From: Azolla caroliniana
Taxonomy: Eukaryota; Plantae; Polypodiophyta
NCBI GenBank assembly: GCA_043228905.1
Contig: JBHGNT010000001.1
Span: forward strand, 30,814,001 to 30,878,000
Direction of reading: 5' to 3'
DNA: 64,000 nucleotides
A program made the translations under genes and the position numbers. The notes beneath the pieces were generated by a model. That model did no database searches. It was given only the letters and a program-made list of their open reading frames with translations, and was not told the DNA's origin. Of this stretch, positions 1,921 through 56,897 are shown piece by piece; within the stretch, counting starts at the first letter, position 1, and the number at the start of each line of letters is the position of its first letter.

Positions 1921-3426
1921 ATGCCTCCTCCTCTGCTCTCTTTCTCCTTCACATTCCTCTTCCTCTTCCTCCTTCTTGCCTGCTCCCCCGCTCGCTGTGG
2001 CGGAGACGACGCCTCCTCCTCCTCCTCTCGGGATGAGAAGCATCATCATCATCATCATCATCATCTCGTCTCTGGGAGCGACTCTCCCTACGACCATGGC
2101 CTTCTCCACCTGCTGCCTCTGCCTCTGACTCGTCTTCACGAGAGTAGCAGCAGTAGGTATTGGCGTTTCTCGGCAGATGGAGGAGGAGATATACGTGCAG
2201 AGGATGATGATGATGAGGCTCCAGCTCCCTCACCATCTTCTTCTCCACCGCCCGCTTCGCCTCCGCCTCCGCCTCCTTCTCCACCTCCTCCTTCTCTATC
2301 GCCGCCACCTCCACCACCATCTCCATCTCCACCGCCTCCATCTCCACCTCCACCTCCACCATCTCCATCTCCACCGCCTCCATCTCCATCTCCACCGCCT
2401 CCATCTACATCTCCACCTCCACCGCCTCCTTCTCCCCCACCACCATCTCCCCCACCACCATCTCCATCTCCACCGCCTCCTTCTCCCCCACCGCCTTCTC
2501 CTCCACCTCCATCTCCTCCGCCGCCTTCCCCCCCACCGCCTTCTCCTCCACCTCCTTCTCCTCCGCCGCCATCTCCTCCACCTCCACCTCCATCTCCTCC
2601 TCCGCCTTCTCCTCCACCTCCATCTCCTCCTCCGCCTTCTCCCCCACCTCCATCTCCTCCGCCGCCTTCTCCCCCGCCTCCATCTCCTCCTCCGCCGCCT
2701 TCTCCTCCTCCACCTCCACCCCCGTCTCCGCCTCCTCCCGCCCCATTCGCTCTGCTCGCCTCCCTCTCCGTCTCCGCTGGATCCCTCTCCCCCGACTTTA
2801 GTCCGTCCATTCTCAACTACGCCGTCGCCGTCGACGCCGACGTCAGCTCCGTCACTGTCACCCCGCTTGTACCCGAGGATGTGGTAACAATTTAATAGAA
2901 TTTATAGTTCTAACTTGTCCTTCGAAAAACATCATTCCCCAGTTTTCTTTTAACCGTCCAATGTGGTTGGAACTTTGCGTTGGGGGGGGGGGGGGGCGGG
3001 GGGGAATTCCAGGTTGCTGCCGGTTACCTTCTGAGCGTGAATGGGACGGCCATCAAAAGCGGAGAGACCAGCTCTCAGTTGGCAGTTGGGCAGCCCGGAG
3101 AAACGTCCACAGTTCTCATCGACTTAGCGTCCAACGGTTATCAGCCCTCCACGTACACCCTGTCCTTTAGCCGAGGTAACCCCCGTACTCACGCACTTTT
3201 TTTTTCTTTCTTGTATCCATCTCCCAATTCACCCCATTTCACACTACTAATGATGTTTCCTTGTCTTACAGGCACTAGTGGTGCCAACGGTGGCCTCATC
3301 GCACTCATCATCATCCTCGCTCTCTTGGTGGTGGGAGCTATTGTCATTATCTTGTACAAGAAGGGTTGGATCCCTTGGTTTGCACCGAGATCCACTTCGG
3401 ACTATCGGCCCTTATCTCAAGCCTAG
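1921..3426 (+). CDS. Type-I membrane protein: signal peptide, His8, SP3/SP4 extensin-like rod, cadherin-like beta-sandwich (PF12733-like), TM helix, short tail
   Basis: Exons 1921-2883, 3013-3175 and 3272-3426 join in frame at GT-AG sites. N-terminus MPPPLLSFSFTFLFLFLLLACSPARCG; HHHHHHHH; about 170 aa of SPPP(P) repeats; LASLSVSAGSLSPDFSPSILNYAVAVDADVSSVTVTP...LSVNGTAIKSG...STYTLSFSR; TM LIALIIILALLVVGAIVIILY followed by KK. Confidence 0.85.
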
Positions 3427-5566: not shown

Positions 5567-8500
5567 TCATCTCCGCCGTCTTGATATGAAATCCCCATTG
5601 CTCAACGAGCTAATGCCTTCTTCCTCATCCTCAGCTGACATCTTCCCTTTTCCATTCTTTATGACTGTCCTTTGTGGATCTGCATCCCTATAACCTGCTG
5701 CCATGTATGGAGAACTTTCTTTAGGAATGCTTTGGTTTTCAGATGCCACTTGAAAATGGGATCCATTCCTTTGTCGCGATGTCTCCCGAACATTATTCTT
5801 CCGTTCCTTTAACATTATAATGCATGAACAAAGATCTTTTTAGGTAGTTTCAAACATGGTAGCTAAACACAAACATATAGACGAGCAAAACACCAAAATA
5901 CACTTGCTGGGTATTTCTCACAGTAACTCGTAAGTTTCTGAATTTTCCAGAATACCCCTGTAGTATTCTGGAGAATTTAGAATCTTACAAGGTATTCTGG
6001 CACCCAAAACTCAGGGATATCTTGGTGCTTTTCCCTAAATAGAATCTGCTTACATCAATATTATAATACCTCACGAAAAGGATTGTCATCAGCCTCAAGC
6101 ATGTGAACTACTTGGCCCATTTTGGGCCGTTTCGGCGCATCAGGATCAACACATCGTAGAGCTACAAGTAATGCTCTTTTGAGAACTCTTGGTGATGGCT
6201 TCTGCTCCATCTTTGGATCTACAACTTCTTCAGAGTGGTGGTTACCGACCATTGCTTTCAGCCAGTCTACCAAATTTACCTAGGAAGTGCACAAAATAAG
6301 GATATTAATTTAAAGAGGTTTGTATAGCTGTTACTGATAAAGTACCTAGTTAAGAAATCTCACTTACCTCTCCAGCTGGCCTACTAAAATCAACAGGAAC
6401 TCTTCCTGTCACCAACTCCATAAGGAGGACTCCGTAGCTATACACATCGCTTTTCTCAGTTAACATACCAGTAAGGGCATACTCTGGAGCAACATAGCTT
6501 CAAAGAAGAAATTTACAACAAACAAATAAATGAGATTTGTCGCGTGTTAAAAAAAAGAGAAGCTCACTTCAAAGCCATGTACACTCACCCAAAAGTTCCC
6601 ATGACTCTTGTTGTAACATGGCTATTTCCTGTTCCTAAAAGCTTGGCAAGCCCAAAATCGGCAACTTTCGCATTCCATTGGCTGTCTATTAAAATATTGC
6701 TGGATTTCACATCACGATGTACAACTTTGGGTTCCAAGCCCTCATGCAAATAAGCCAACCTGTAGTTTATCGTTCTCTCTCTCTCTCTCTAAAAACATTG
6801 AATTGATTTTAAAGATTCAATATACAAAAAAGTTGAATGATAATCATAACATATATCAGCATATTTGGAATAACAAATTTGGAAAAGTTTAGTATGGAAG
6901 GCTTTTGTAAACCTTTTTCTAAATGGTCATGTTTTTTATATTAATAGCTACACAATTTGTAAAGGAAAATGGATTGTTTCACTGTGATATATTATTCATT
7001 ATTCTTTCTTTACCCTCTATCTTATTTATAATTCATAATTTAGTGAATAAGAGGCAGTGCATCACATTCTACTACGCACTTTGTTTTATTTATAGACAGA
7101 ATATTTGCAATGTTTTGAGTACAAAAGCTAAAAATTAGGACATAACCAAGGAATGGCATTCTAGTACAGATATAATAGATCAACATATATGCATGAAACA
7201 TCAAAATCTTGCAATACAGAAAATGTCAACATAAAACACAGACTCACACAAGAAAATACGAGAAATGGAAGTTTGAGTGATATGAGAGTTTTAATAAATA
7301 CCCTTTTGCAGTACCAAGAATAATCTTCATTCGCTTCTCCCAAGACAATGGTGGCAGATCTCCTAATGGACCATGTAGCCACTGGTCCAAATTTCCATTG
7401 TCAACATATTCATAAACCAGCATCCTGAACAACACAAAGGAAAATATTCTCAATCAGAAAGAGCAATACTATAGATGAAGCTACGTAAATAATCAAGTTA
7501 ACCCCACGATCGTAATTTTCTAAAATGCAACAAAGTAAATACATCCAATAATCACCATTAAAGGAAAAGGACGCTTTTGAAAAAGACAAATAACCAATTA
7601 AAGACCACTTCATTCATCCTATTCAAGTTACAACAGTTCAAGTATCTCTGAAGGTTCTGAATCAATCAGCATTGACAAATTGTACAAGTATTTGGTGTTA
7701 TCTTCAAATTCAGAAATAAAAAAAGAAATAATCACCTCTGAGATCCCTCCATGCAGTAACCAATAAGCCGGACAAGATTTTTATGCCTCACACGTCCGAT
7801 TGCCTCCACTTCTATTTTAAATTCTCTTTCTGCTTGTCCTCTGTGATTGTGAATGACATCAGAATTCAGTACAAAACATTTCAACCATCTTGGGCACATC
7901 TTTTAGAATTCCAAGTTCTGATGTACATTTCTGAATCTGATGCAGATTGCACCAGTGAAATGCAATAGATGATTTGGAGATATGGTTCAGAAAAGCATAC
8001 CTATTGTTTAGAAGGTTTTTCACGGCAATGCGAGTTCCATCAGGCAAGTGGCCTAAGTAAACAATGCCATAACCACCCTCACCCAGCACATTTGTATCAG
8101 AGAAAGAATCTGTTGCCGCCTCAAGCTCACGTAATGTGTACCAATGACCCCATCCAAGGTGAGAAACCTCGGGCACAGATATACCTGTAGGTGCTGATGA
8201 AGGTGAATCTGTAGATCGAGAATCATTACTAGCACTGGACCCTCTTTCGTGTGAATGATGAGGACCTCTCCTCTCTCCTTCCACTACACCTTTCTCCACA
8301 GGAGGTAAACGCACACGATTTGCCATCTCCATCCTGGTTTCTTCTTGTTGCCTTGCTGCTTGCCTAGTTCTCTCAAGAGTTCTGTTTTCTTGCTGTTTCT
8401 CTACTCTGTCCAAACTACTATCTCGTTGTAGAGCGTCTACAATGACCTCATTCTCTGTTTCTGAGTTGTTTTTCCCCAGTGCACTGTTGTTGGATCTATT

Positions 8501-8752
8501 CAAAACACGATAAGGAGGAGGAGTAGATTGCCTAGCACGATCATTCATCAGTCCATTTACATTAGAAGTCTTGGATACCATGAAGCTACCATGTTTCTTA
8601 TTTTGTGAGGATTTCTTCCTCGATGCTAGACATATGGAGAGACAAAACAATATGAGAACAATAAGAGCTCCCACTGCGATTCCTATGACAACCCATAGCT
8701 TCAAGCCAAAGACAATTGTACTCTTGGAAAGTTCATTACTGAGAAAATCCAT
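5567..8752 (-). CDS. Receptor-like Ser/Thr kinase, RLCK-V / At1g01540-like (N-terminal TM anchor, no ectodomain)
   Basis: Seven exons, approx. 8752-8001, 7840-7737, 7424-7302, 6759-6589, 6497-6368, 6278-6070 and 5806-5567. Motifs: [69 protein letters not shown]. Confidence 0.95.
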
Positions 8753-9769
8753 TGTCTTCTTGCAAGTTCGAAAAGCTTTTGAGCTCTAAAGCCACATTTG
8801 TAAAGGCAAGAAATCCACTTTGCTATAAGTACATGATAGATCTGCAGGAAGTTTGCACCCCTGATGCTGTCCTGATACTTTACCCTAAAATTCGATTCAC
8901 TCGCTGATGAAAAATCCAAAGGAGAGATGATCGATTTTATGATGATTTTTTTCTGCGACAATGGTGAAGGAATTTTCGAATGAATTTTAGGGTTTTCCAC
9001 AAAAAGCAGTGGTGACTTTGACAGAGATCTGATCACCTTGCCTAGATCTGCAGGAATGTTATGCCTTTCTGATACTACAGAGAAATCCTAACAGAAAACG
9101 TTTTTAGAGTGAGAGCCAGACATCTAAAGAAAAAATGTCAATCTGTGGTGGAAATTTTAGAGTTTTCTGCAACCAACAATGGCGAAGGGAAAAACTTTAC
9201 TAGAGACGTCCAGGATAACTGAAAGCGAAAAGTGAACTTTTCATGGTTAACGAAACTTTTTAGAAAAACGTTTTTCATCTGCTGAGTATATATTCCGAGA
9301 GGAGGTACCGACCTCTTAGGAAAATAAGGTTTCCTGGAAGCAGCAATGACGAATCGGTTGCCTTTCTATATAGATCTACGGGAATGATTTGTTTCTATAC
9401 TGCACTGAAATCCTAACAGAAAACGACTTTCACCTGAAGAATGTATCGTCCACGAAGAAACTTGATCGAACTCTTAGAAATTTTAGGTCTTCTGTAACAA
9501 TGGCGTTCGAGAGGTCGGCAGTCATTTTTTGCATTTCTAGAGCTACATTTCTTGCATATCTGACAGAAAAAGTTTCTATTTGGTGAACATATACTATGGC
9601 GACAAGAGATTCAATCAACCTAGGAATAACTTTTAGGGTTTTGTTTTCTGAAAATCCATCCCAGAGACAGCGATGACTATCACGGTCCAAAGGAGAGAAG
9701 AAAACGAAGAAGAATAGATCAGTACCTGAGATGAATTGAATCAAGAACGTGCTGATCAATCGTGCTTGT

Positions 9770-18429: not shown

Positions 18430-21400
18430 TATTGGCTTTGAATGCTTACTCAGGGTGTTTAAACCAATATCAAGTTTTGGACAAGATACATTTGAAGGTG
18501 AGCATGAAAAGGCAATGTGAAGGCCATATCCTATTCAAAGAGAAGACACATGCACGCGATTTTCTTTAGAGATTAAATCCAAGGGTTGTTGAATCTTTGG
18601 GCTATAAGGGGTAAGAAAAACGAGTAGTCATAGTCATGTTTGTCATTGATTGACAGAATATGCTCACATATATGTAGGTAGGTCAAACTGTTGGAAAATG
18701 AGCTTGTTTCTCTGTGAGATTTTCATTTCTTTATTAAAAAACATGGGGGCTATGATTTTTGGTGGAGAAAAACCATCATAATCATGTATCAACAAGGGGC
18801 TTAGGTCTTTTTGAAGGTAGAGATGCCTTTTTGCTTGAGTGATTGCACTGTCTCTCTTCTAGAGGAGTGAAGGAATACTACTTATAAGCATCTTTCTTGG
18901 TGCATTATTAAGGATCACACTAAGGATGAGCAAAAGAAGAAGAGATTAAGGAGAAGAATGGATTTAGTGTGCTTAACCACACTAACCACCCTTGAGCAAA
19001 GGACATGAGACACAGAAAATATCATTGGTGTCCCATACCACCAAATATCACATTATGATATACCATGGTTGTTTAAATAATGGATCTGAAGAAGAGAGCT
19101 TAGCCTCACCAATAGAGTATGGACAACATTTTCACGATGCTGTAATGAAAGGGTAGCTAGTTCCCTTTATATAGCTCAATGCCTAAGGATCCCAGACCAT
19201 GTTTTCCATGTGTCATAGGTCCATATGGGTTGGTTCAAGTCCCTAGGGTAACCATTTTCCTGACCATCCTACCCTTAACAAATTAAAACTAGCTATAAAT
19301 TTGGTTTGTAAGGTTATGCCTATAACATACATGGAGTTCAAGCTATCTCATATTTCTTGTATCTTTGTGGAGTATAGCTGTTGATTTCGTTTTCCTTCAG
19401 AACACCTTTTTGTCACTTTACGATTGAATGGCTTCCTATATTTTTCTTTATCACCTTATAAAACCTTAGATGTGAGCTTTGGATATATCTTTCAGGGTGC
19501 TTTCTTCCTTAATGTAAGTTTCATGGGTTTGGCACATGTTTTTTTTAGTGCTTTTATCCTTGGTTCTTTGGAGAGAGCATAATCAATTAGCTTCTGGCTT
19601 ATCATTCACCATCTAATTAACTTTGCAAATCAGAAGTTTATTCCCTATTTCATATATTTATATGTACACTTCATGTACTGATTTATTTTCAGAAAAATGT
19701 GAATGAAGTGATTGCGTCGGATCTTTTGGGGATTGCCAAAGCACTGAAAAGATCAAGTGTTTCTACCTTACATTTGTTCCAGAAGCATGCAGAGCTACAA
19801 AAGAGGAATGAAGGTTCACTCTCACTAGGGATATATGTAACTGTTTTGTAGTCAAATGATGGATCAACATTAAATTAGTTTCTCCATCTGAGATACTGTA
19901 GCCTTGAATCTCCTGCAGAAAACAAGAAGCTGGGATTTCTTGGGGACAGGCATTCAGAAACTCTGTATACATTTTCTAAGTAAGCAATAGGCTTCAACAT
20001 GGTTTTGTGAAAAATTGTCAAGTAAGTGAACTTGGTTTAGTGAATTAAAGGTTCTTGACCTTGTTTCTTCTGCAGAAATTTGGCATGGGCTTTATCAAGT
20101 GGGGGATGTCTGCAAGAGTTAGAACTTGGCTTTGCCTTATGGCAGAGAGATCTGAAAATAATTGCAGAATCCATCTGTATGTAAATCTCCTACAACTGAA
20201 TGTATGAGATTCTCTATTGTAAAATGATGGTCTGCCTCCCCCCGCTCAGGATCCCTACTGTTCTGACATTGTTCTACCTGCAAACCAAAATAATTTAGAC
20301 CAATTTTTATTTACTACCTTTAAGATATACATAACCAGAAACGTTGTGAGCCGCTGTTACTTCCCTGATAACATGTTACAGTTTTTGCTACCTAACAAGT
20401 TGCCACCACATAAAATTTCATTTGTACATTGAGGATTTCTCCGGCTAACTCATCTAAGACAACTCTCATTGGTTTTTTCTGAATAGTGAATATGCAATTC
20501 TGTGACTGAGTTATAATATCAGTTCCAAAATGCATGTAATAAAATTTGTATCTTATTCTTTTAACGCCCAATATGTTGAAATTAGGTCAATCACCAACGT
20601 TGAAGCGATTGTCATTCGCAAATAGTGAGCTTGGAGATCACGGCCTCCAAATTCTGGTTAGTTGTTAATGTTAAACAGAACAATTGATTCTGATACTGAT
20701 TACAGCTCCTATATCTTCAATTTAAAATTTGCTATTGATGAAGCTAGATTTGTGAAACTCTTAAACGAACTATTCACTTACTTAATAGGGTAAAAGCTTA
20801 CAAGAATGTGCACAGTTGGAGATTCTTAATCTTTCTGCATGTGGATTAACTGATGCAGTTTCTGCTCTCTTAGGTGTAATCCTCAAGGTGCCGATTCATC
20901 AGTGTTTCCTAAACATTTATTTTTTCATATGCATATGAACCTTATGTAAGGGTCCTTTTTTAAGTGTATTGATGATAGATTGTGATATTGAAGGCACATG
21001 TATGTAGAAGGACTCAAGGAGATTGGCAAGCAAGTCTTAGAAGCTCAAAAGGAGTGAATGCACTGACAATGAGACCAAAGGGTCTGATTGCCCTTGACAT
21101 TTCTTTGAATCGCCTCTCAGACTTCACTGTACAGACCATCTGCACTGTCTTGAGGATTGGCACCCCACTTGAATGTAACAAAATCCTCCTTAATCCTTTA
21201 GTTTTTATATATATTTTTAAAGGATATTGCATTACGATTACATGCTATATATAATTTACAAAAGAGGCAATCTTCCGTGATGTTGAATTTGGATTTAATG
21301 TACAAAAAACAGCTCTGAATCTGAGGGGTAATCAGCTCACTAGAATTAGTGGGAAGCTGTTACTCGATGTAATGGAGGAATGGACAACTTTGAGACTGAT

Positions 21401-22734
21401 TGACCTTCGAGATAATACCGATAATAAACTTATGGGTGTCCTTGAGGATCGACAACACTTAACTACCTTTACAAAGAGACACCCTCCCTTTTGGACGGCA
21501 TCGTTTTCGAGGCTGGGAAGAATAACACGTCTGAAAACCTCTTCAAAAAAGATGAGAACACTAAATGGTTCTCTCACTGGCAATGCAGCTATCCGTCCTC
21601 AGTCTTGCCCAAACATCATTCAATCCCATCCCCAACCTAAGAGTAGGTGTGTAAAACCTCCATTGGTACTTCAACAATCTACTTCAAGACATATTGAGTA
21701 TATGAAAGACAACAAGCATATGCAAAGGCCATCAACATCTCCAACAAAGGATAACACATCTTTATCATCATGTCCTTCTGAATTTACAGCTTGGAGGGAT
21801 AATGATTCAAGCACAAAAGAAAACAGGATGCCATTTGACACATCTTGGGTCAACCCTAATGTGGTTGAGGAGTTTGCGCGAAAGCAAGCCAGCTATTTAA
21901 ATGTGAAGAGAGCCCAAGATGAAGAAGATGATGTATTGAAACCAATGGACTTGAGAAGAAACTTTGATTCTGGAAACTATCAAGCTGAAACGTTTAAGAC
22001 AAGACAAGGATCAGAACCGGTATTGAGGAAGGTGAATTGTGATGAACAACAGTTAAGAAGAAATAAATATGATGAAAATTGTAACCTTGATCAGGAGTTT
22101 GAGCAAATGGATGCAAAAAACCATGGGCGTCAGACAGCATCACTTCTGAAGGAAATGACGCGGGCTATCCTTCATCTCCAAAGTATGGCATACAAAATCA
22201 TATCCAGCATGTTGCATGCACATTTCCAATGCTTTGAGCAGCTGTCTTCACTCTATATCATTATGTTTTGAACATCTGTACTATTCATTAGGGTTTTGCT
22301 GTAAACATTCCACTGAAATTAAACATAATTTGCACGTGCCCACACATTTTCTGTATTGTCCTAAAAAAATGCCCACTCCTTTTGCTCTCTCTATGCATTT
22401 AATGTGGTGCTTAAGATGTTTCATTTGGATGTTTTTGTTTGAGATACGAAATAGTGGGGCATTGTTTTGGCAAATACATCGAATTGTGTGATATTTTTAT
22501 GTGTGTTGAATAGCATTTTTAGACGTGCTTCTTATCTGTAAGCATTTCTTAAGAGATGAAGGAACCAAATGCATGCATTTTTTTGGATTGAATAAGGTGA
22601 CAATACCATAGGTTTGTAAAACAGAGACACTGAAGTGTTTTCCTTTTTCAGAACGTCTTGATGAGCTTATTGGCCCCGCTCAGGCAGATTCGTTAGCAGA
22701 ACAAGCGGCATCCCAATTGGAAGTGCTTGGTTAA
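18430..22734 (+). CDS. CEP78: CEP78-like centriolar LRR (RNI-like) protein; 5' end unresolved (probable upstream exons ~17000-17190 and ~17830-17878)
   Basis: In-phase GT-AG exons 18430-18497, 19496-19513, 19693-19813, 19919-19979, 20076-20176, 20586-20656, 20789-20887, 20994-21174, 21313-22182 and 22652-22734. The translation LQELELGFALWQRDLKIIAESICQSPTLKRLSFANSELGDHGLQIL...LNLSACGLTD...ILKAHVCRRTQGDWQASLRS parallels recalled human CEP78 (LKNLELNGLILRERDL...LSLANCPIGDGGLEII...[20 protein letters not shown]). The first two listed exons are less certain. Confidence 0.8.
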
Positions 22735-40350: not shown

Positions 40351-41888
40351 AAGTTGCAGAGGGGGGGGGGGGGGCATTGTATCGGTAACCATGGCCGGTG
40401 TTAGAGGGATACGTAAGTACATGGAGTTGATAGTGACAAAACTCATGGCATGATATGAGAGGAAGGCGAAAACCGAGATGGACGAGAGAGATAAAGAAAG
40501 GCAACAAATATGTATGTATGTACACACAAGCACAAGGAAAGGAGTGGGCGGGCGTGTTCACACGTGGGGCCCCGGACAGCCTCCATATGCATACATACAG
40601 ATGCATACATACATACATGCTCATACACAACACATAAATATGTAAGATTGGGATTGGGGCCAAGAAGTGGGGGATACAATCTCATGCGCCAACCTCGGAT
40701 TTTGGAGGCCTAATTTAGGCCGCCTCTCCTTCTCCTTAATCTTCTTCTTCGTGCTCCTCCTCTCCTCCATGCAGCAGAGAAGAAAAATTAACAACAACAA
40801 CGTCATCGGCGCGAAATAACGTTGGAAACAAAACCCTAACCCTAATTCCTCTTCTATCAGCACCGAATACATCCAACTATCGAAGCTTCTAACACCCACA
40901 CTCGTTGATCGTGAATCCTCGCTATTAATATACTTGTCACTACAGGAATGACAACATTGGAATGAATCGAAAACCATGATCTTCTCTTTCTTTCGTACAC
41001 GTTTGCAGGGAAATATTCTGTTTTTGTCTCTGTTATCAATATCAATGCATGACCGCTTGCCATAGCTTGATCTTTAACATTAAGGTCTTTTTGCCATGAA
41101 GAACATGAAACGTTTCTTCTACTTCTTCTTCTTCTTCCTCATTTTCCTTATTCTTGCAAAAGGTTGCAGAAGAAGAAGAATGTCCAACTTATAATAAAGC
41201 ATATATCGACTGCATTCGTCACAGGTAAGTCTTTTCTATTTTTCTCTGCATTTTTGCTTCTTCTCGTTGTTCATATACATATTTTCCTTTTACTTTTTGG
41301 TCACAAGATAGGGTTGTATTTCTTCAAGATTTCTTCTTCCGTTTCTTCTTTGCTTCTTCTTCGTCTATCTAAATTTCCTTTCTTTGGCTATGTTTAGGGT
41401 TTTTCCTTTTTAATTATATTGTCTTTGCTTCATTTTTTTTCTTCTTCTGTTCTTGTTCTTGTTCTCTTCTTATATATTTAGATTCTCTTCAATGGCTGAA
41501 CTTGTTGGGATCTTCTCCCCTTCCTTATTTGTTCTTGTTTGTTTCAAAATTTCCTTTCTTTTGGTCGCATGTATTATTAATTTTTCTCCCTTATTTTCTT
41601 CATATATTCTTTCATAATAAGTAATTAACCTGTCATTTTTTCTGTACATTTTCCATCCCTTTATTGTTCTTCTTTGTATCGTTTTCCTTTGTCTCATTTG
41701 TTGTCATATATGTATATGTATGTATGTATTTTCCTTTCTGATCTAAATCATTTCTTTATCTAAATAAATTTGTCTGGCTAATTCTGCTGAACAGGATGCA
41801 AAATTAATCAAAGGTTATAAAAGCCACATATTAGAGGATCAATCTCTGCAAAATACTGTTGATATCGCTGGATATATGCTTTCTCGAT

Positions 41889-44800
41889 ATGTCAACTTCT
41901 TCAGCTTTGAATAACAATGGGACAGGATCGTCGAACATATGTACAGATCCAATATCAGCTGTTTCTAATGGTGTTTGGCAAGGAGATAATCCCATGAACT
42001 TTTCTCTTCCTTTGTTGATCGTCCAGATCTGTTTAGTCCTTGTTGTCACTCGTTTCTTGGCTCTCCTTCTTCGCCCCTTTCGACAACCGCGGGTCATAGC
42101 GGAAATCATTGTAAATTCATATCTTAATCTCTTGTTATTTGCTCCAATAGTAATTGCACTGTTAATGGTATCATGTAATATAGCTTCTCTAGTGTCATAT
42201 GCTGGAAAATCTACATTTTTTCTTGACATAATTTAATATAGCTTCTTGTGCAGTAATACATTCCCAGTAAATTTGTTCTTGACACAGTGTAATAAAACTT
42301 TACTTATGTATGCATTGAAAAAATATTAATCGATTAATCCTAAATTCAACAGGGAGGGATACTACTCGGTCCTTCTGCATTGGGTCGCAACAAAACCTAC
42401 GTCAACCATATATTTCCCAAGCAGAGTATTACTGTGCTTGACACAGTAGCAGATCTAGGCCTTATATTTTTCCTTTTTCTCGTGGGTCTCGAGCTCGACC
42501 TACATGCCATCAGAAGGACAGGAAAACAAGCATTGAGTATAGCTGCGGCTGGAATCTGTGTCCCCTTCATTGCAGGTGTAGGAGTTTCAGTTGTCTTACA
42601 TAGAACTATTGCTTCGGATGGACGATTTGTCCCCTTTCTAATCTTCATGGGAGTGGCCATGTCTATAACAGCGTTTCCTGTATTGGCTCGAATTCTAGCA
42701 GAAAGGAAACTTCTCACTACAGATGTGGGACAAATGGCCATGTCAGCAGCAGCAGTAAATGATATGGCAGCGTGGATTCTTCTCGCATTGGCAGTTGCCT
42801 TATCAGGCTCTGGAAAGAGCCCTCTGATTGCCCTGTGGGTGTTTCTATGTGGGCTTGCTTTTGTGATAGTTATGTTTGTTATTATCAGGCCCCTTATGGC
42901 TTTATTTACTAGACAAGCCGTGGAGAATGAGCCTGCCAATGAGCTTCATGTTGCAATAACTCTTGGTGGAGTTTTGATTTCGGGTTTTGCAACCGATGCT
43001 GTAGGTATTCATGCTATTTTTGGAGCTTTTGTGTTTGGGCTGATCATACCAAAAGAAGGAGCATTTGGAACCATGATGATAGAGAAAATTGAAGATTTCG
43101 TAACCATTCTCATGTTACCGCTGTACTTTGCTTCCAGTGGATTGAAGACAAATATCAGATCTATCCACAGTGCACAATCCTTCAGTCTTCTGGTCCTCGT
43201 TATTGCCACAGCATGTATTGGGAAAGTATTCGGTACTTTCGCAGTTGCTTCTGTCCACAAGATGAATATCCGGAAATCACTAACCCTAGGATTTCTTATG
43301 AACACGAAAGGTCTAGTGGAGCTCATAGTCCTCAATATCGGCAAGGATAGGAAGGTAATCAATGCATTTGTTTTTCATGTGCTTAAAAACACTTGTTTCA
43401 TTTCCATCGTTCAGCACCATTTCCATTTCTTCCCAAGAGTAAAAGAATCTATCTTCTGCATTTATATAATTTCAAACACGCAGGTCCTTAACGATGAGAC
43501 ATTTGCTATCATGGTTTTGATGGCCCTAGTCACGACCTTTATTACTACTCCTACGGTTATGGCATTGTATAAACCAGCCCGGAACCAAGTACCTTACAGT
43601 CGAAGAGTTCTCTACATTCCAGGAAGTAAAGATGACGCAGAACTACGTGTTTTGGCATGTGTGCACGGGATGCCAAATGTTCATGCCATAATTAATCTCA
43701 TTGAAGCTTCTAGAGGAACAAGAAAGCGGACTCTCCGAATGTATATTTTGCATTTGCTTCAGTTAACCGAAAGGCCTTCTTCGATCATGAAAGTGCAAAA
43801 GGTAAGAACAAATGGGTTGCCATCTAGTGATTATCACGACAACATGGATAGTGTTGTGCTTGCCTTTGAAGCATATGGACAGTTGAGCAAAGTAACCGTC
43901 CAAGCCATGACTGCTATATCAAATTTTGATGATATGCATGAAGATATTTGTGCCATAGCTGGGCAAAAGAGAGCTTGCTTCATTGTGATACCTTTTCACA
44001 AGCATGCCCGTCCAGTAGATGGTGTTTGGGAGGGTAACAATCCGGGTCTACGGAATGTGAATCTGAAAGTTCTTTCACATGCCCCTTGTTCGGTCGGAAT
44101 CTTAGTGGATCGTGGAATCGGCATGGCTTCTCTGTCTTCAAATCATGTGGACCACAATGTGGCTGTTTTGTTCTTTGGAGGTCCTGATGATAGAGAGGCA
44201 CTTGCCTTTGGCTATCGCATGGTAGAGCATCCAGGAGTGAAATTGAAGGTCTTTAGGTTTATTCAAGGACCTATAACGGATCATGTATCAATATCTATAT
44301 TGTCGTCTGAGTATTGCGATCAACATTCATGTCATAGTGATATTATTGAAGGGGATGTGCAAAACTCGAGGTTCTCTCGAAGCTCTCCTTTTTCCATGGC
44401 GCACGGTAATTCCTTAGAGACTTTGAATCGCAACATGGCAGAGGAAGAGAAACTAGATGAAGAGTGTTTGGCAGTGGTGAAGGAGGCAAGCTTGGTCACA
44501 ATGATAGAATCGCAACAAGAAATTACTATGACACGATCTGTCACATTTGAGGAGATAGTAGTTAATACCAACCCGATCGAGGTAGCGATTGATATTGGAA
44601 GGATCAAAGATTTTACCTTGTTGGTAATGGGCCGAGGAAGGACTCCGTCTCCGATGATCGCAACGTTAACGGGGAGGCAAGTAGAGTTTCCGGAGCTAGG
44701 TCTTATAGGGGATGCCCTCATCACTTGTAGTCACCACACTCATTCTTCGATATTTGTTATTCAAAGGCACGATCCTGCTTTGGTGAAAGAGGAGATAGAT

Positions 44801-45064
44801 TGTCGGAAAGTAGAGGGTGCTTCCTTCTCAAAGACAAATAACTTGCTTTCTAGGGGGCTCCTTGTTGCTACAGGTCCCCGTACTCCGTCTCTCCAATCCT
44901 CTCCGGGGAGGGATAATGATGATAGCATTGATCATGATGATAACCTTGATAAAGTTCCTGGTGCAGCTTTTGATAATGATAATAAAGTTCCTAGTAGAGC
45001 TTCTGATAATGATGATATAAATGATGACAATGTTCCAAGTACCGTGTTTGTTGAAAGAGATTAA
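41889..45064 (+). CDS. Cation/H+ antiporter, CHX family (CHX17-20-like, CPA2)
   Basis: Exons 41889-42110, 42353-43354 and 43484-45064. Motifs [113 protein letters not shown]. Confidence 0.96.
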
Positions 45065-51510: not shown

Positions 51511-52493
51511 GGTTTCGTATCTTAGGGCATGTTTGATTCCATACACCTAATTGTCGATTATTCTAATTAAATTTTAATTTCATAAGTATTGTTTCACTTA
51601 TATGATTTTCTAGTAATTATTATTTACCCGCCCACAATTAACTCTCCTTTTTCCACTTCCTTTTCATGTATAAAGTATTTACATCGTTTATTTTTAATGT
51701 AACCTTTACGTGTAGACTATTTTTTTCGTATGGAGTGGCTTGTTGAACGATTTTTTTTTTCAACGAGTCATCTAGGTTTAACTCTTATCATCAAGCCTTA
51801 GAAAACGAGTAAAACCATATGAGTTCCCTTATTGATGTTTTACTCATGGATTTGAGTATTACATCTTTGCGCACAACACCGTCATCACTTGTATCAATTT
51901 GTGGCTTATGTCACAATTGTGCAAGTTATAACAATCATATTGGGATGTATATGTGCATACCTTGCACTTCCCATTTATTTGTGACATTGTTTTTTTCGTA
52001 GGTAACACATGGGTTCTTTTTTTTTACCCTTGTTTTCGTCACTACTTAACTCTTATGAGTAGTGCCTTATTTTATCATTTTATCATCACGTTTGCTTATT
52101 GCTCGCAAGACTAGAATATTACTTGTGAGTGCACTTGTTTTTTCACGTAATACACTTTCTCGACCATATAATACATGATGGGTTGGCATTAATATAAGGC
52201 TATCTAGGAAATTTCATTGATGTAAGAACCATGGTTGAGCCTCGGGGAGCCGCCATGATTACTCAAGATAGAGATCCGAGAAATACATCTTAGTTATGTT
52301 TTCCCCCATGGTTTTTAAAACACCATAGTGTTACCATAGTTATCGGATCTCGAATCACATCTCATATGTCTAGAGGGGTAAAGACATGAGATACTTTCTT
52401 GGATAAAGTTCTTTCAATCAAAATTTCAAGCATTCATTTTGCTTGTGTATTTTCTGAACCTCCTTATTTTATTGCATACCCACAGCGTGCATC

Positions 52494-55400
52494 ATGGAAC
52501 AAGTTTTGAACGCAGTTGGAACGATCTCTCCAAATGAGACCTCTCAACCCCAATCCGCATCTCGCACACAAGCTGAGATCACTATTGAGCAATTGCTCAC
52601 TACTACCTTGAATCAATTGGCCGAAATGAGACAGGCCAATATGGCATTGGAAAAGAAATTCCAAGAATTAACTATTGAGTCCAAGAAAGAAGGTGAACCT
52701 TCCTTCGTAGTCACGCCTTTCAAGGGAGATAAGAAAGAAAGAACCGAGGAGGCTATTAGCACTTGGCTTGGTCGTTGGGAGTCTCACTTTGAGCTTCATC
52801 CCAAGCCCGATGCAGTAAAAATTGGTTATGTCGGTCGTGAGTTAGGTGGCCGAGCTGCTGCTTGGTGGCGTGGCCTAAGGACCGCAAAAAACTTACCCAC
52901 AACTTGGGAAGGTTTCGTTGATGTTTTTAAGAAACAATTCTTGCAGCCACCTTCTCAAACCGAACAAGCGCAACACTTGCTCACATTGTCTAGTAAGCCA
53001 TTTACCTCTCTCGAGGATTATGTGCATCACGCTCGGACCCAGATCCAAAAATCGGGACTTACGGGTGAGAAATGGTTTGTCGCTTGTTTTTTGAATGGTA
53101 TTCCCAATGGGGATTATCATTGGATTGTCCATGACAAGGACCCCACAACTTTCGAGGAAGCCGTCAACATTGTGCTGCGATACCATAGGACTTCCAAGAA
53201 AGACCACAATAAACCTGAGTTCGCCAAAACTCCGAATGTCAAGTTCATTGGGAAACGTAAGCAATCCAGTGACACTCTTGACCGCGACTCAAAGAAACCG
53301 AACCTCTTCTGTGCATATTGCAAGAAGCGGGGCCACACAAAGGATACCTGTCGTCGTCTTGAGAGGAAGTCAATGAACACCCCTCCTCAAGACAAATCTA
53401 CGAGTCACACAGGTGAGTCTTTTGATATTGTTGAAGTTCATACCAATCACTTAAGTTTATGTGAATGCACTTTTCCTTCACATTTACTTGGACCTAATGA
53501 TTTACTCCGAGCAGTCGGATATATCAATGGAACACAAGCACATTTCTTGTTTGATTCCGGTAGTTCTCACAATTTTCTTAATGATCACTTTGTGCAGCAA
53601 ATGGAGCTCCACATAAACGCAAGTGATCATATCTATCAAGTTCACATGGCAAATGGAAACGTTCAATACATCAGTGGCATTGTTTGTCAACTGCCAATTC
53701 AAATAGATACTTATTTGGAGAAGCTTGACTTTCATGTTATGAAATTACAATCCGCAGATGTCATTTTAGGATATCCTTGGTTTTTTAATAAAAACCCTTC
53801 TTTGTCCATTGATTGGGTTAATCACTCAATCACATTTGAACTTAATAATTGTAAACATTTTATTCAATGTTCCAAACTTCCTTCTCATTCACTTGTGTCT
53901 TCTAAATCTTTAAGTGAGTATTCTAGTTCATTAATTTATTCGTGTGTAATTGATCCTGCGGTTCAATTTTATTATTTTAATATTGACGCCACACAATTAC
54001 CACATTTTGAGCAACGATTGCTCGACTCTATTTTAGAGGATTTTCAAGATGTGTTTCCTACTGAATTACCGCTTACTTTACCACCTAAACGTAATGTGGA
54101 CCATCAAATTGAACTCATCCCTGGGGCTGCTCCTGTGAGCATTCCACCTTACCGACTTAGTCGATTAGAAGAGGATGAGATCGCTAAACAACTTAAGGAA
54201 TACTTGAGTATGGGCCACATTAGGTATAGTAAATCACCTTGGGGTGCGCCACTTCTATTAGTCAAGAAGAAGGAAGGTTCGTGGCGAATGTGTATCAATT
54301 ATCGCCGTTTGAATAAAATGACAATTAAGAATGCATATCCATTACCTCGTGCCGATGATTTGATTGATCGTTTGCACGGGGCTCGATATTTTACGAAAAT
54401 TGACTTACGAACTGGTTATCATCAGATTCGCATCGCCGAGGATGATATTCCTAAAACCGCTTTTCGTACGCGTTATGGCCATTATGAGTTTTTAGTCATG
54501 CCATTTGGGTTGACTAATGCTCCAGCCACATTCCAACAAGCGATGAATGATGTTTTCCGAGATCAACTCGGTGATTTTGTTGTCGTCTTCTTGGATGATA
54601 TTTTGATATATAGCCGTACCTTGCAAGATCATGTTCAACATGTTCGATTTGTTTTGCGAAAGTTGCGTGACAACTCTTTCTATGCAAAACATTCAAAATG
54701 TGACTTCTTCCAAAAATCTATTGTGTACCTAGGTCATTTAATTACAGAAAATGGCGTTGAAATTGAACATTCTCGTATTGAAAAGGTTAAACTTTGGCCC
54801 ATTCCTCGTAATATTCGTGAACTTAGATCATTCTTAGGGTTTGTTGGATTTTTACGAAAATCAATTCGTAACTATTCCAAATGGACTACGCCATTAACTG
54901 ACCTTTTAAAAGGTCATCCACGTAAGTCTGTCAAACCAATTTCATGGAATGAACAACTTGACAAATCATTTGAGACACTCAAGGAGCATGTGTGTCAGGC
55001 TCCCACTCTTCTATTACCAGACCCTTCTAAGCCTTTCTCAATTGAAACCGATGCTAGTGATTATGCTATTGGTGCCGTTCTTTATCAAGGTGGTCACCCT
55101 ATTGCTTTTGAAAGAAAGAAGCTTGATGCTGCTCAATCTCGGTATTTGGTTCAAGAGAAAGAGTTGTTTGCGGTGATACACGCACTTAAAACATGGAGGC
55201 ACTATCTCTATGGAAATAAATTTGTGGTTACAACAGACCATCAATCATTAAAGTATTTTTGTGACCAGCCCGATCTTGTTGGTCGTAAAGGCCGTTGGGC
55301 TGACCTTATGCAAGATTTTGATTTTTCCATACGATATCGCAAGGGTTCTATGAACACCGTTGCTGATGCTCTTAGTCGCATTAAAGAAGTTAACATGCTT

Positions 55401-56897
55401 AGCTTCACGGAAATAAAATCTGATCTTTTAGATCACCTTCGAGGGAAATACCTTGATGACAGTTATTTCTCAAAATACTGGACGAAAGCCGAATCTGGTT
55501 TAGATGCCGATACTAGCACCCTACCCTCGAAGGCGACCTTTCACATTACAAACGGTTTGCTCTACCGTAGTGGAAAGGTCTGTGTTCCAGATTTACCAAA
55601 TGTTAAACAGAAAATTTTTCATGAATGTCATGATGCACCATCTGCTGGTCATCCTGGAATACAACGCACACTCGTTCTCATCTCGTGTACTTTTTTCTGG
55701 CCTAAGATGCGCTCTGACGTGCATAAATACGTAACTCAATGCTTACAATGTCATATTAATAAGTCGGAACGACTTAAAGCTGCTGGTCTTTTACATCCCT
55801 TAGATATTCCCAACAATAAATGGGAAAGTATCTCGATGGATTTTATTGTTAGTTTACCTCGTACACAGAGGGGTCATGATGCCATATGGGTTGTCGTTGA
55901 CAGGCTAACAAAATTAGCTAGATTTATTCCTACAAAAACCACGGTAACCGCTCAACAGTTGGCTTATCAATTTGTTGATGAGTTATTTCGTTTTTATGGA
56001 TTACCGATGGATATTGTTAGTGATCGAGATTCCAAGTTTACTAGTGACTTTTGGACTCAGGTCTTTAAGAAACTAGAAACTACGTTGAGCATGAGTTCCG
56101 CAGATCATCCTCAGTCTGATGGACAAACTGAACGAGTTAATCAAATTATTGAGGACATGCTTCGAGCTTATGTAGCAAAAACCCCTTCTAAGTGGGAGCA
56201 ATACCTTCCTATCTTAGAATTTGCCTATAATAGCTCTAAACATACATCCACTGGATATAGTCCTTTTATGTTGATGTATGGTTTTCAGCCACGTGCCCCA
56301 GTTGATGTCACGATTCATCGTGATACATTAGACAGTACACGCAATTTTTTGCAAGACATGAACCAAATGTTGCATATTGCCAAAGAAAATGTCAAGACAG
56401 CTCAAGATCGTGCTCGATTTTATGCTGATCAGGATAGACGTCCTCGTGCATTTACTATTGGTCAAAAAGTTTTTTTGCGTGTCCCGACTGATTCTACGTC
56501 ATTATCTACGGGCAAGTGCGCTAAGTTAGCCCCACGATATTGTGGCCCATTTGAAATCCTTAAGCGAGTTGGGTCATCTGCTTATCACCTTGCCTTACCT
56601 CGTAACGTTGGTATTCATCCTGTTTTTCACGTCAGTCGTCTAAAACCATTTTTAGGCTCTGGTGATAACACCATCACAATCCAAGATCTTGTAACATTAG
56701 AGGATTTTTCTTACAAACCTCATGTTCCTGAACGAATTCTTGATTCTCGTACTAAACGTTTACGTTCTAAAGAGATTCGGCTATTCAAGATCAAATGGAT
56801 GGATAAACCTATTGATGATGCCACATGGGAACGCGAGCATTCGCTTAAGGCACAATTTCCTCACTTTATATTGCAAGAGTGCAATCTTTTGAAGTAG
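52494..56897 (+). CDS. Gag-Pol polyprotein (gag, zinc knuckle, PR, RT, RNase H, IN, chromodomain), 1467 aa
   Basis: CAYCKKRGHTKDTC; LFDSGSSHNF; KTAFRTRYGHYEF.VMPFGL.NAP; FLDDILIYS; ETDASDYAIGAVL; H-H-C-C and SMDFI/SDRD/QTERVN; GPF; PERILDSR...KIKW...DDATWE. Confidence 0.98.
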   Translation: MEQVLNAVGTISPNETSQPQSASRTQAEITIEQLLTTTLNQLAEMRQANMALEKKFQELTIESKKEGEPSFVVTPFKGDKKERTEEAISTWLGRWESHFELHPKPDAVKIGYVGRELGGRAAAWWRGLRTAKNLPTTWEGFVDVFKKQFLQPPSQTEQAQHLLTLSSKPFTSLEDYVHHARTQIQKSGLTGEKWFVACFLNGIPNGDYHWIVHDKDPTTFEEAVNIVLRYHRTSKKDHNKPEFAKTPNVKFIGKRKQSSDTLDRDSKKPNLFCAYCKKRGHTKDTCRRLERKSMNTPPQDKSTSHTGESFDIVEVHTNHLSLCECTFPSHLLGPNDLLRAVGYINGTQAHFLFDSGSSHNFLNDHFVQQMELHINASDHIYQVHMANGNVQYISGIVCQLPIQIDTYLEKLDFHVMKLQSADVILGYPWFFNKNPSLSIDWVNHSITFELNNCKHFIQCSKLPSHSLVSSKSLSEYSSSLIYSCVIDPAVQFYYFNIDATQLPHFEQRLLDSILEDFQDVFPTELPLTLPPKRNVDHQIELIPGAAPVSIPPYRLSRLEEDEIAKQLKEYLSMGHIRYSKSPWGAPLLLVKKKEGSWRMCINYRRLNKMTIKNAYPLPRADDLIDRLHGARYFTKIDLRTGYHQIRIAEDDIPKTAFRTRYGHYEFLVMPFGLTNAPATFQQAMNDVFRDQLGDFVVVFLDDILIYSRTLQDHVQHVRFVLRKLRDNSFYAKHSKCDFFQKSIVYLGHLITENGVEIEHSRIEKVKLWPIPRNIRELRSFLGFVGFLRKSIRNYSKWTTPLTDLLKGHPRKSVKPISWNEQLDKSFETLKEHVCQAPTLLLPDPSKPFSIETDASDYAIGAVLYQGGHPIAFERKKLDAAQSRYLVQEKELFAVIHALKTWRHYLYGNKFVVTTDHQSLKYFCDQPDLVGRKGRWADLMQDFDFSIRYRKGSMNTVADALSRIKEVNMLSFTEIKSDLLDHLRGKYLDDSYFSKYWTKAESGLDADTSTLPSKATFHITNGLLYRSGKVCVPDLPNVKQKIFHECHDAPSAGHPGIQRTLVLISCTFFWPKMRSDVHKYVTQCLQCHINKSERLKAAGLLHPLDIPNNKWESISMDFIVSLPRTQRGHDAIWVVVDRLTKLARFIPTKTTVTAQQLAYQFVDELFRFYGLPMDIVSDRDSKFTSDFWTQVFKKLETTLSMSSADHPQSDGQTERVNQIIEDMLRAYVAKTPSKWEQYLPILEFAYNSSKHTSTGYSPFMLMYGFQPRAPVDVTIHRDTLDSTRNFLQDMNQMLHIAKENVKTAQDRARFYADQDRRPRAFTIGQKVFLRVPTDSTSLSTGKCAKLAPRYCGPFEILKRVGSSAYHLALPRNVGIHPVFHVSRLKPFLGSGDNTITIQDLVTLEDFSYKPHVPERILDSRTKRLRSKEIRLFKIKWMDKPIDDATWEREHSLKAQFPHFILQECNLLK

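What the first reader, a model, noticed from the sequence alone, without database searches (positions are those of the whole stretch)
1921..3426. Extensin-stalked membrane protein carrying a bacterial/algal-type cadherin-like beta-sandwich domain
Seen in sequence: after a ~170-aa SP3/SP4 rod, the spliced product has LASLSVSAGSLSPDFSPSILNYAVAVDADVSSVTVTPLVPEDV/VAAGYLLSVNGTAIKSGETSSQLAVGQPGETSTVLIDLASNGYQPSTYTLSFSR, then a TM helix and a ~22-aa tail. Established knowledge (recalled): this fits the Pfam PF12733 cadherin-like pattern L..LSVS.G.LSP.F.P....Y...V...V.SVTVTP......VNG....SG.........TYT....R. That domain is common in bacterial surface proteins and also known from chlorophytes and animal CPED1, but it is not among the classical chimeric extensin partners (LRX, PERK, formin). 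Inference: this may be an undescribed chimeric HRGP class that tethers wall to plasma membrane, either horizontally acquired and then intronised or retained from algal ancestors and lost in seed plants.
Basis: partly seen in the sequence, partly recalled or inferred. Interest (0 to 1): 0.8.

Follow-up and report, generated by a model that had tools for sequence, protein, structure and literature searches.

The report
Membrane extensin with bacterial-type Ig domain
This spliced, transcribed plant gene encodes a predicted membrane protein with a long proline-rich cell-wall rod on a small domain found mostly in bacterial surface proteins; relatives in a fern and a spikemoss share the plan and a likely sorting signal, and we found the family only in tables, never studied.

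Summary
Confirmed. The gene has three exons (1921-2883, 3013-3175, 3272-3426) and gives 426 aa: signal-like N-terminus, 174-aa Ser-Pro rod, one PF12733 domain split by intron 1, one hydrophobic helix, 22-aa tail. Contigs of several public runs skip both introns. The domain sits at the membrane, under the rod, so it is a pedestal and not a head on a stalk. It is Ig-like but lacks conserved cadherin calcium motifs. The plan is not new: Ceratopteris KP509_34G031600 has it, Selaginella 403585 is listed as 'Chimeric (Cadherin-like)' in one supplementary table, and this scan noted it twice before in peat moss. Ten literature searches found no study of it. Added here: the plant domains form one clade with a 4-5 residue loop insertion that holds intron 1; the domain is as close to bacterial-type repeats (44-46%) as to the fern relative (42%); and all four plant tails keep D/E-Y-x-x-hydrophobic. 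Best reading: a mucin-like, non-covalent wall-membrane linker sorted by clathrin adaptors (inferred). Origin by early bacterial transfer is plausible but unresolved; loss in seed plants is untested.

The parts
1921..2883 (+). Exon 1: signal-like N-terminus, head, Ser-Pro rod, first half of the PF12733 domain
   Evidence: one open frame from the ATG, in-frame stop upstream; last 138 bases covered by transcript contigs
1921..1998 (+). Predicted signal peptide, about aa 1-26
   Evidence: hydropathy above 1.8 for windows starting at aa 1-6; cleavage site inferred, no signal predictor run
1999..2217 (+). N-terminal head, aa 27-99, with a His8 run and an acidic run; poorly conserved
   Evidence: sequence; no Pfam match
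2218..2739 (+). Extensin-type rod, aa 100-273: 132 Pro, 37 Ser of 174 residues, 28 SP3-7 units, no Tyr or Lys
2746..2883 (+). PF12733 first half (profile 1-34)
   Evidence: 25.8 bits, E 1.5e-5
2884..3012 (+). Intron 1, 129 nt, phase 0, GT..AG, inside the plant-specific loop insertion
   Evidence: bridged in X2, X3, X13, X5, X8; 113 nt in the allelic copy
3013..3175 (+). Exon 2: PF12733 second half (profile 39-88)
   Evidence: 22 bits, E 2.3e-4
3176..3271 (+). Intron 2, 96 nt, phase 1, GT..AG, no in-frame stop
   Evidence: skipped in 7 of 8 runs laid
3272..3426 (+). Exon 3: short linker, membrane helix, tail, stop
3295..3357 (+). Predicted transmembrane helix, about aa 384-404
   Evidence: hydropathy peak 3.58; helix at the same place in the model of the fern relative
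3400..3414 (+). Tail motif D-Y-R-P-L (aa 419-423), a candidate tyrosine-based sorting signal
   Evidence: D/E-Y-x-x-hydrophobic also in P0012, P0009 and Selaginella 403585

Best explanation
The gene is spliced and transcribed and encodes a predicted single-pass membrane protein that likely works as a mucin-like, non-covalent linker between cell wall and plasma membrane, with its tail likely sorted by clathrin adaptors. Shown: exon structure, transcripts, Ser-Pro rod, PF12733 domain next to the hydrophobic helix, the same plan in Ceratopteris and Selaginella, and the tail motif in 4 of 4 plant sequences. Predicted: Ig-like beta-sandwich (model of the fern relative), signal peptide, outside-in topology. 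Inferred from established extensin chemistry: the prolines are hydroxylated and arabinosylated and the rod forms a stiff polyproline II helix of about 54 nm (174 residues at 0.31 nm, recalled value) that reaches into the wall. Inferred: with no Tyr in the rod it cannot form isodityrosine cross-links, so the grip on the wall is through sugars; the Ig-like domain is a rigid pedestal or docking site for a membrane partner; the 22-aa tail has no enzyme, and its D-Y-x-x-L motif binds a mu-adaptin to place or retrieve the protein. The domain most likely came once from a bacterium into an ancestor of at least vascular plants (about 0.55), against retention from algae (about 0.4).
For: Splicing and transcripts in runs of several studies. 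Coding constraint: in X13, of 33 listed differences (42 in all) 18 fall on third, 10 on first and 5 on second codon positions, 13 codons silent and 12 changed, no stop, no gap. Same plan in P0012 = Ceratopteris richardii KP509_34G031600 (PF12733 51 bits), in the unnamed fragment P0009, and in Selaginella 403585 (read by eye). Model of P0012: domain blocks mostly pLDDT 96-97, six listed strands, helix 214-242. Best solved match by sequence profile and by Foldseek is the C-terminal beta-sandwich of Bifidobacterium AgaBb, 8yk1 (E 2e-7; E 6e-4), which its authors found to be a stabilising domain (PMC11368712, passages): this fits a structural role. Tail motif kept while the rest of the tail varies; YMPL of vacuolar sorting receptors binds mu-adaptins in vitro (PMC3355779, passages). 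Plant domains are one clade, 100/87, with 16-17 residues in a loop that has 9-14 in all 53 other rows (12 in 47).
Against: No localisation, glycosylation, binding or mutant data exist here. Only four plant sequences were seen, one by eye and one a fragment. A Y-x-x-hydrophobic motif is short and does not tell plasma membrane from Golgi or vacuole routes. The fold was predicted for the fern relative (42% identical in the domain), not for the window's protein, and the best VIA-align scores (Z 8.0, rmsd 2.6-2.9) are generic Ig-like matches. The tree has 95 columns, 33 of 53 inner branches open and an unsettled bootstrap; its non-plant rows were picked by likeness to plant queries, most are unnamed, and none is a named alga. 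The head and the rod length differ widely between relatives.
Confidence: 0.5

Rival explanations
1. It is a trafficking protein of the Golgi/TGN/vacuole path that cycles like a vacuolar sorting receptor and carries cargo on its Ig-like domain; it is not a wall linker.
For: YRPL and YVPL resemble the YMPL motif of vacuolar sorting receptors.
Against: A 174-aa extensin-type rod is a wall feature by established knowledge; no PA, thioredoxin-like or EGF domain was matched; two of the four tails are less YMPL-like (YKEV, YSLL).
Confidence: 0.2
2. It is a wall-integrity sensor like yeast Wsc1 or plant PERK ectodomains: the rod reports strain and the tail or a partner kinase signals.
For: Rod plus single helix plus short tail is the recalled plan of such sensors; a conserved tail Tyr could be a docking site.
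Against: No kinase domain, tail only 22 aa, no conserved Cys-rich or lectin head at the tip. The kinase gene next door is only a neighbour.
Confidence: 0.15
3. It is a membrane-bound precursor: the rod is cut off and built into the wall, and the stub is cleared through the tail motif.
For: The distal position of the rod and a retrieval-type motif fit shedding.
Against: No conserved cleavage motif seen between rod and helix in the three alignable sequences; the domain is intact and conserved.
Confidence: 0.1
4. It is a true cadherin-like, calcium-dependent adhesion molecule.
For: The Pfam name; weak Foldseek rows for cadherins at E 0.017-0.045.
Against: One domain only, buried under the rod; the single D-x-D (aa 305-307) is D-x-H in close relatives and absent in Ceratopteris; cadherin rows score no better than unrelated Ig-like folds.
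Confidence: 0.04
5. Origin rival: the domain is an old eukaryotic module kept from green-algal ancestors, with no transfer near the base of land plants.
For: A paper lists cadherin-like domains among chlorophyte kinase ectodomains (PMC12757656, passage); the unnamed P0057 has polyproline linkers between such domains and cannot be excluded as sister (AU p 0.27).
Against: That paper's supplements hold no PF12733 row; P0057 does not join the plant clade in the free tree and lacks the loop insertion; the window's domain is 44-46% identical to bacterial-type repeats.
Confidence: 0.4

Closest known systems
Selaginella moellendorffii 403585, 'Chimeric (Cadherin-like)' AGP (PMC5266747 supplementary Table 7) and 'CHIMERIC EXT' (PMC4769139 S6 Table)
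   Same: Signal peptide, Pro-rich rod, one cadherin-like domain with the same loop length, one TM helix, tail with E-Y-x-x-L (compared by eye).
   Different: 293 aa with a short, broken rod (3 SPn units by the table) against 426 aa with 28 units. Listed only; neither main text uses the word cadherin.
Ceratopteris richardii KP509_34G031600 (KAH7283935.1, UniRef A0A8T2QK90)
   Same: SP4 rod, PF12733, TM helix, tail with D-Y-x-x-V; 42% identity in the domain; same clade.
   Different: 265 aa, rod about 50 aa, no His-rich head; annotated as hypothetical.
Bacterial PF12733 surface proteins; solved relative AgaBb beta-sandwich 2 (PDB 8yk1)
   Same: Domain sequence and fold; up to 46% identity.
   Different: There the domain is mostly in tandem arrays (up to 28 copies) beside SLH, RCC1, FG-GAP or enzyme domains, lacks the plant loop insertion and has no extensin rod.
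Named chimeric extensins: PERK, formin-homology EXT, LRX
   Same: SP3-5 rod fused to another domain; PERKs and class I formins also carry a rod outside a single TM helix (recalled; classes as defined in PMC4769139).
   Different: No kinase, FH2 or LRR domain; tail of 22 aa; the partner domain is outside the membrane.
Animal transmembrane mucins and yeast Wsc/Mid2 sensors (recalled analogy)
   Same: Glycosylated rod, membrane-proximal folded domain, one helix, short Tyr-bearing tail.
   Different: No homology tested or implied; the rod is Ser-Pro, the domain is PF12733 and not SEA or WSC.

Membership tests
PF12733 cadherin-like beta sandwich | Score over the curated cut-off of 24.2 bits | tested here: met
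   First half alone 25.8 bits, second half 22 bits, collinear 1-34 and 39-88 of 89; fern relative 51 bits. The spliced domain was not scored whole against Pfam.
PF12733 cadherin-like beta sandwich | Ig-like beta-sandwich fold | tested here: met
   On the fern relative only: high-confidence all-beta domain, best match 8yk1, Ig-like rows at Z up to 8.0.
Other chimeric extensins (PMC4769139) | Two or more SPPP repeats | tested here: met
   28 SP3-7 units.
Other chimeric extensins (PMC4769139) | A further domain that is not LRR, kinase or formin | tested here: met
   Only PF12733 reaches significance.
Other chimeric extensins (PMC4769139) | Signal peptide (most members) | tested here: inconclusive
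   Hydrophobic N-terminus by hydropathy only.
Other chimeric extensins (PMC4769139) | Hydroxyproline O-arabinosylation of the rod | not testable with these tools
   Needs protein chemistry.
Classical extensins | SPn repeats throughout the protein with YXY cross-linking motifs | tested here: not met
   No Tyr in aa 81-299, no YXY anywhere; rod is 41% of the protein.
PERK / formin-homology EXT / LRX | Kinase, FH2 or LRR domain | tested here: not met
   None matched in exon 1, exon 2 or the 3' frame.
Cadherins proper | Tandem EC repeats | tested here: not met
   One domain.
Cadherins proper | Conserved calcium motifs (D-x-D, D-x-N-D-N, L-D-R-E; recalled) | tested here: not met
   The only D-x-D is not kept in close relatives or in Ceratopteris; the others are absent.
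Yxx-hydrophobic adaptor cargo | Y-x-x-bulky hydrophobic motif in a cytosolic tail | tested here: met
   4 of 4 plant tails seen.
Yxx-hydrophobic adaptor cargo | Binding to a mu-adaptin | not tested
   No complex was predicted and no partner sequence fetched.

The most novel reading that the evidence does not exclude
A bacterial surface-repeat domain was captured once near the origin of land plants, gained an intron-bearing loop, and was fused between an extensin rod and a membrane anchor with an adaptor-binding tail, giving seed-free plants a single-copy, mucin-like wall-membrane receptor of their own that flowering plants lost.
Probability: 0.25. Interest if true: 0.7.

Novelty: new variant of a known kind. 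Interest (0 to 1): 0.42.

Why it matters
How plant cells hold and sense their wall is studied almost only in flowering plants (PERK, LRX, formins, malectin kinases). A small, apparently single-copy family in ferns and lycophytes with a rod, an Ig-like pedestal and a conserved sorting motif is a simple candidate linker that can be knocked out in Ceratopteris. If the domain is bacterial in origin, it adds a structural cell-surface module to the known transfers into land plants. The plan itself is already on record in tables and databases, which limits the surprise.

Tried and rejected
Artefact or contamination: rejected; the gene lies on a 37-Mb contig among plant genes, has spliced introns and a collinear allelic copy. 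Paralogue on contig C153: read as an allelic haplotig, 92-99% identical over the 20 kb of flanks compared, domain, helix and tail identical; three protein searches of the genome found no other copy, a family search found nothing and its control did not ring either, so these do not prove single copy. Donor at 2881 and retention of intron 2: not seen in any contig; database protein P0001 reads through intron 2 and is a gene call on unspliced DNA. Word-based protein searches: none of 38 candidates, 1 of 42, the self-like P0001, 31 of 7993 with no plant-type row, crowded by repeat proteins; these missed even Selaginella, so they say nothing about absence in seed plants or algae. Representative search: 33 hits, 2 plant-type besides self. 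Metagenome scan: none of 596. Atlas: only bacterial-dominated PF12733 clusters, scores under 0.9 for the plant queries. Motif searches of the two papers' sequence lists found only 403585; they are crude, one file was cut when stored, and files 4-6 and 13-23 of PMC4769139 were not searched. Ten literature searches found no study of the family; the library lacks most subscription papers, including large transcriptome surveys of these glycoproteins whose supplements may list members. Alignments A1 and A2 misplaced the halves and were dropped. Tree rows: one domain per protein (two for P0057), only matches of at least 20 bits over 80 positions, 56 rows from 429 domain hits; Selaginella could not be included. 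No complex was predicted.

Full report
Observation. The frame that opens at the ATG at 1921 runs to 2883 and continues through two GT..AG introns to a stop at 3424-3426, giving 426 aa. It reads: hydrophobic N-terminus, a 73-aa head with His and acidic runs, a 174-aa rod of 132 Pro and 37 Ser with 28 SP3-7 units (20 of them SP4), a 100-aa domain, a hydrophobic helix and a 22-aa tail. The two halves of the domain match PF12733 in order, profile 1-34 at 25.8 bits and 39-88 at 22 bits, against a cut-off of 24.2. One correction matters: the domain is under the rod, next to the membrane.

Expression. A search of public runs listed 16 rows from 8 studies that hold the stretch or part of it; 8 were laid. 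Intron 1 is bridged by contigs of X2, X3, X13, X5 and X8 with a skip of 129 nt, and intron 2 is skipped in 7 of 8. X13 is on record as RNA and carries a relative about 90% identical. Its 33 listed differences (of 42) fall 18, 10 and 5 on third, first and second codon positions, with no stop or gap. Contigs give no level or tissue.

Copy number and setting. Three protein searches of the own genome found this place and one on contig C153. C153 is collinear at 92-99% over 20 kb of flank, with identical domain, helix and tail, a 113-nt intron 1 and a rearranged rod (437 aa), so it is read as the other allele. Neighbours are ordinary: a receptor-like cytoplasmic kinase, a CHX antiporter and a Ty3-type element.

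Relatives. phmmer over 1.84 billion representatives gave 33 hits; besides a self-like call, two have the plant plan: P0012, which is Ceratopteris richardii KP509_34G031600 (rod, PF12733 at 51 bits, helix, tail), and the unnamed fragment P0009. Most of the rest are long repeat proteins, bacterial where named; at least three are chance hits. Neither main text contains the word cadherin. That single row is consistent with absence from angiosperms but weak, as the table is filtered for AGP motifs. Two earlier notes report the family in peat moss, one also in conifers; I could not check that.

Fold. AlphaFold2 of P0012 with a 23-row alignment gives a confident all-beta domain at about 107-210 and a helix at 214-242. 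Profile and Foldseek searches both put the C-terminal beta-sandwich of Bifidobacterium AgaBb (8yk1) first; its authors show that this domain stabilises the enzyme (PMC11368712, passages). The wide structural search gives generic Ig-like rows, best Z 8.0. Cadherins appear only among weak rows. The one D-x-D is not kept in close relatives, so 'cadherin' is a Pfam name and not a mechanism. A review groups PF12733 with accessory domains of bacterial glycoside hydrolases (PMC4928363, passages), so sugar binding is possible but untested.

Origin. In a 56-row tree the three plant domains form one clade (100/87); the next row is a long-branched unnamed protein (99/91) and the backbone is open. The loop before the V-N-G strand has 16-17 residues in the plant rows and 9-14 in all 53 others; Selaginella has 16 by eye. 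Intron 1 lies in this insertion. The window's domain is 45.8, 44.2 and 43.6% identical to three bacterial-type repeats and 42.0% to Ceratopteris. So the domain entered once, before ferns and lycophytes split, and has stayed close to bacterial repeats. That favours an early transfer, but the non-plant rows were chosen by likeness, the alignment has 95 columns, no named alga was available, and grouping with the possibly eukaryotic P0057 is not rejected (AU p 0.27).

Mechanism. The tails of all four plant sequences keep a basic, G-x-hydrophobic-P stretch after the helix and D/E-Y-x-x-hydrophobic near the end (DYRPL, DYVPL, DYKEV, EYSLL). This is the form of tyrosine-based adaptor signals; YMPL of plant vacuolar sorting receptors binds mu-adaptins in vitro (PMC3355779, passages). 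The rod has no Tyr or Lys, so it cannot be cross-linked as classical extensins are. I therefore commit to a mucin-like plasma-membrane glycoprotein: a glycosylated polyproline rod in the wall, held non-covalently, on a rigid Ig-like pedestal, placed and retrieved through the tail motif (0.5). Architecture and expression are shown; location, glycosylation, adaptor binding and wall role are inferred. Rivals are an endomembrane cargo receptor (0.2), a wall-strain sensor (0.15), a shed precursor (0.1) and cadherin-type adhesion (0.04).

Verdict. It meets the working definition of 'other chimeric extensin' and of PF12733, and fails those of classical extensins, PERK, formin, LRX and cadherins. The plan is tabulated for one lycophyte protein and named in UniRef for one fern protein, and ten searches of the held library found no study. 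It is an unstudied variant of a known kind: real, conserved, testable, moderately surprising. Interest 0.42.

Noticed in passing
window 5985-8785, - strand: Multi-exon receptor-like cytoplasmic kinase with an N-terminal hydrophobic anchor, convergent with the gene; kinase Pfam hit on one exon.
   Followed up: partly
window 41835-45061, + strand: CHX17-type cation/H+ antiporter with a 906-codon open frame (PF00999, PF23256, PF23259).
   Followed up: partly
window 52458-56894, + strand: Ty3-type retrotransposon with one uninterrupted 1479-codon frame: gag, protease, reverse transcriptase, RNase H, integrase, chromodomain. Observed only.
   Followed up: no
window 21255-22268, + strand: 338-codon open frame with no Pfam match at E 0.001.
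   Followed up: no
window 2981-3012: Intron 1 has a G-run of about 22 bases just before its acceptor in place of a pyrimidine tract; the run is much shorter in the allelic copy, yet the site is used.
   Followed up: no
window 2746-3396, runs X1, X3, X15: These runs hold a second spliced transcript about 6-12% different beside the near-identical one; a homoeologue or a second species in the sample.
   Followed up: partly
G000 C153 (L002, L011, L012): A 64-kb contig repeats this region at 92-99%; likely an unmerged haplotype. The rod differs in unit order and length between the two copies.
   Followed up: yes
window 2041-2064: His8 run (His9 in the allelic copy) in the head; Selaginella 403585 also has short His and Asp runs before its rod. 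Metal binding is possible, untested.
   Followed up: no
protein P0057 (unnamed): Three to four PF12733 repeats joined by polyproline linkers; possibly from a eukaryote, not in the plant clade.
   Followed up: partly
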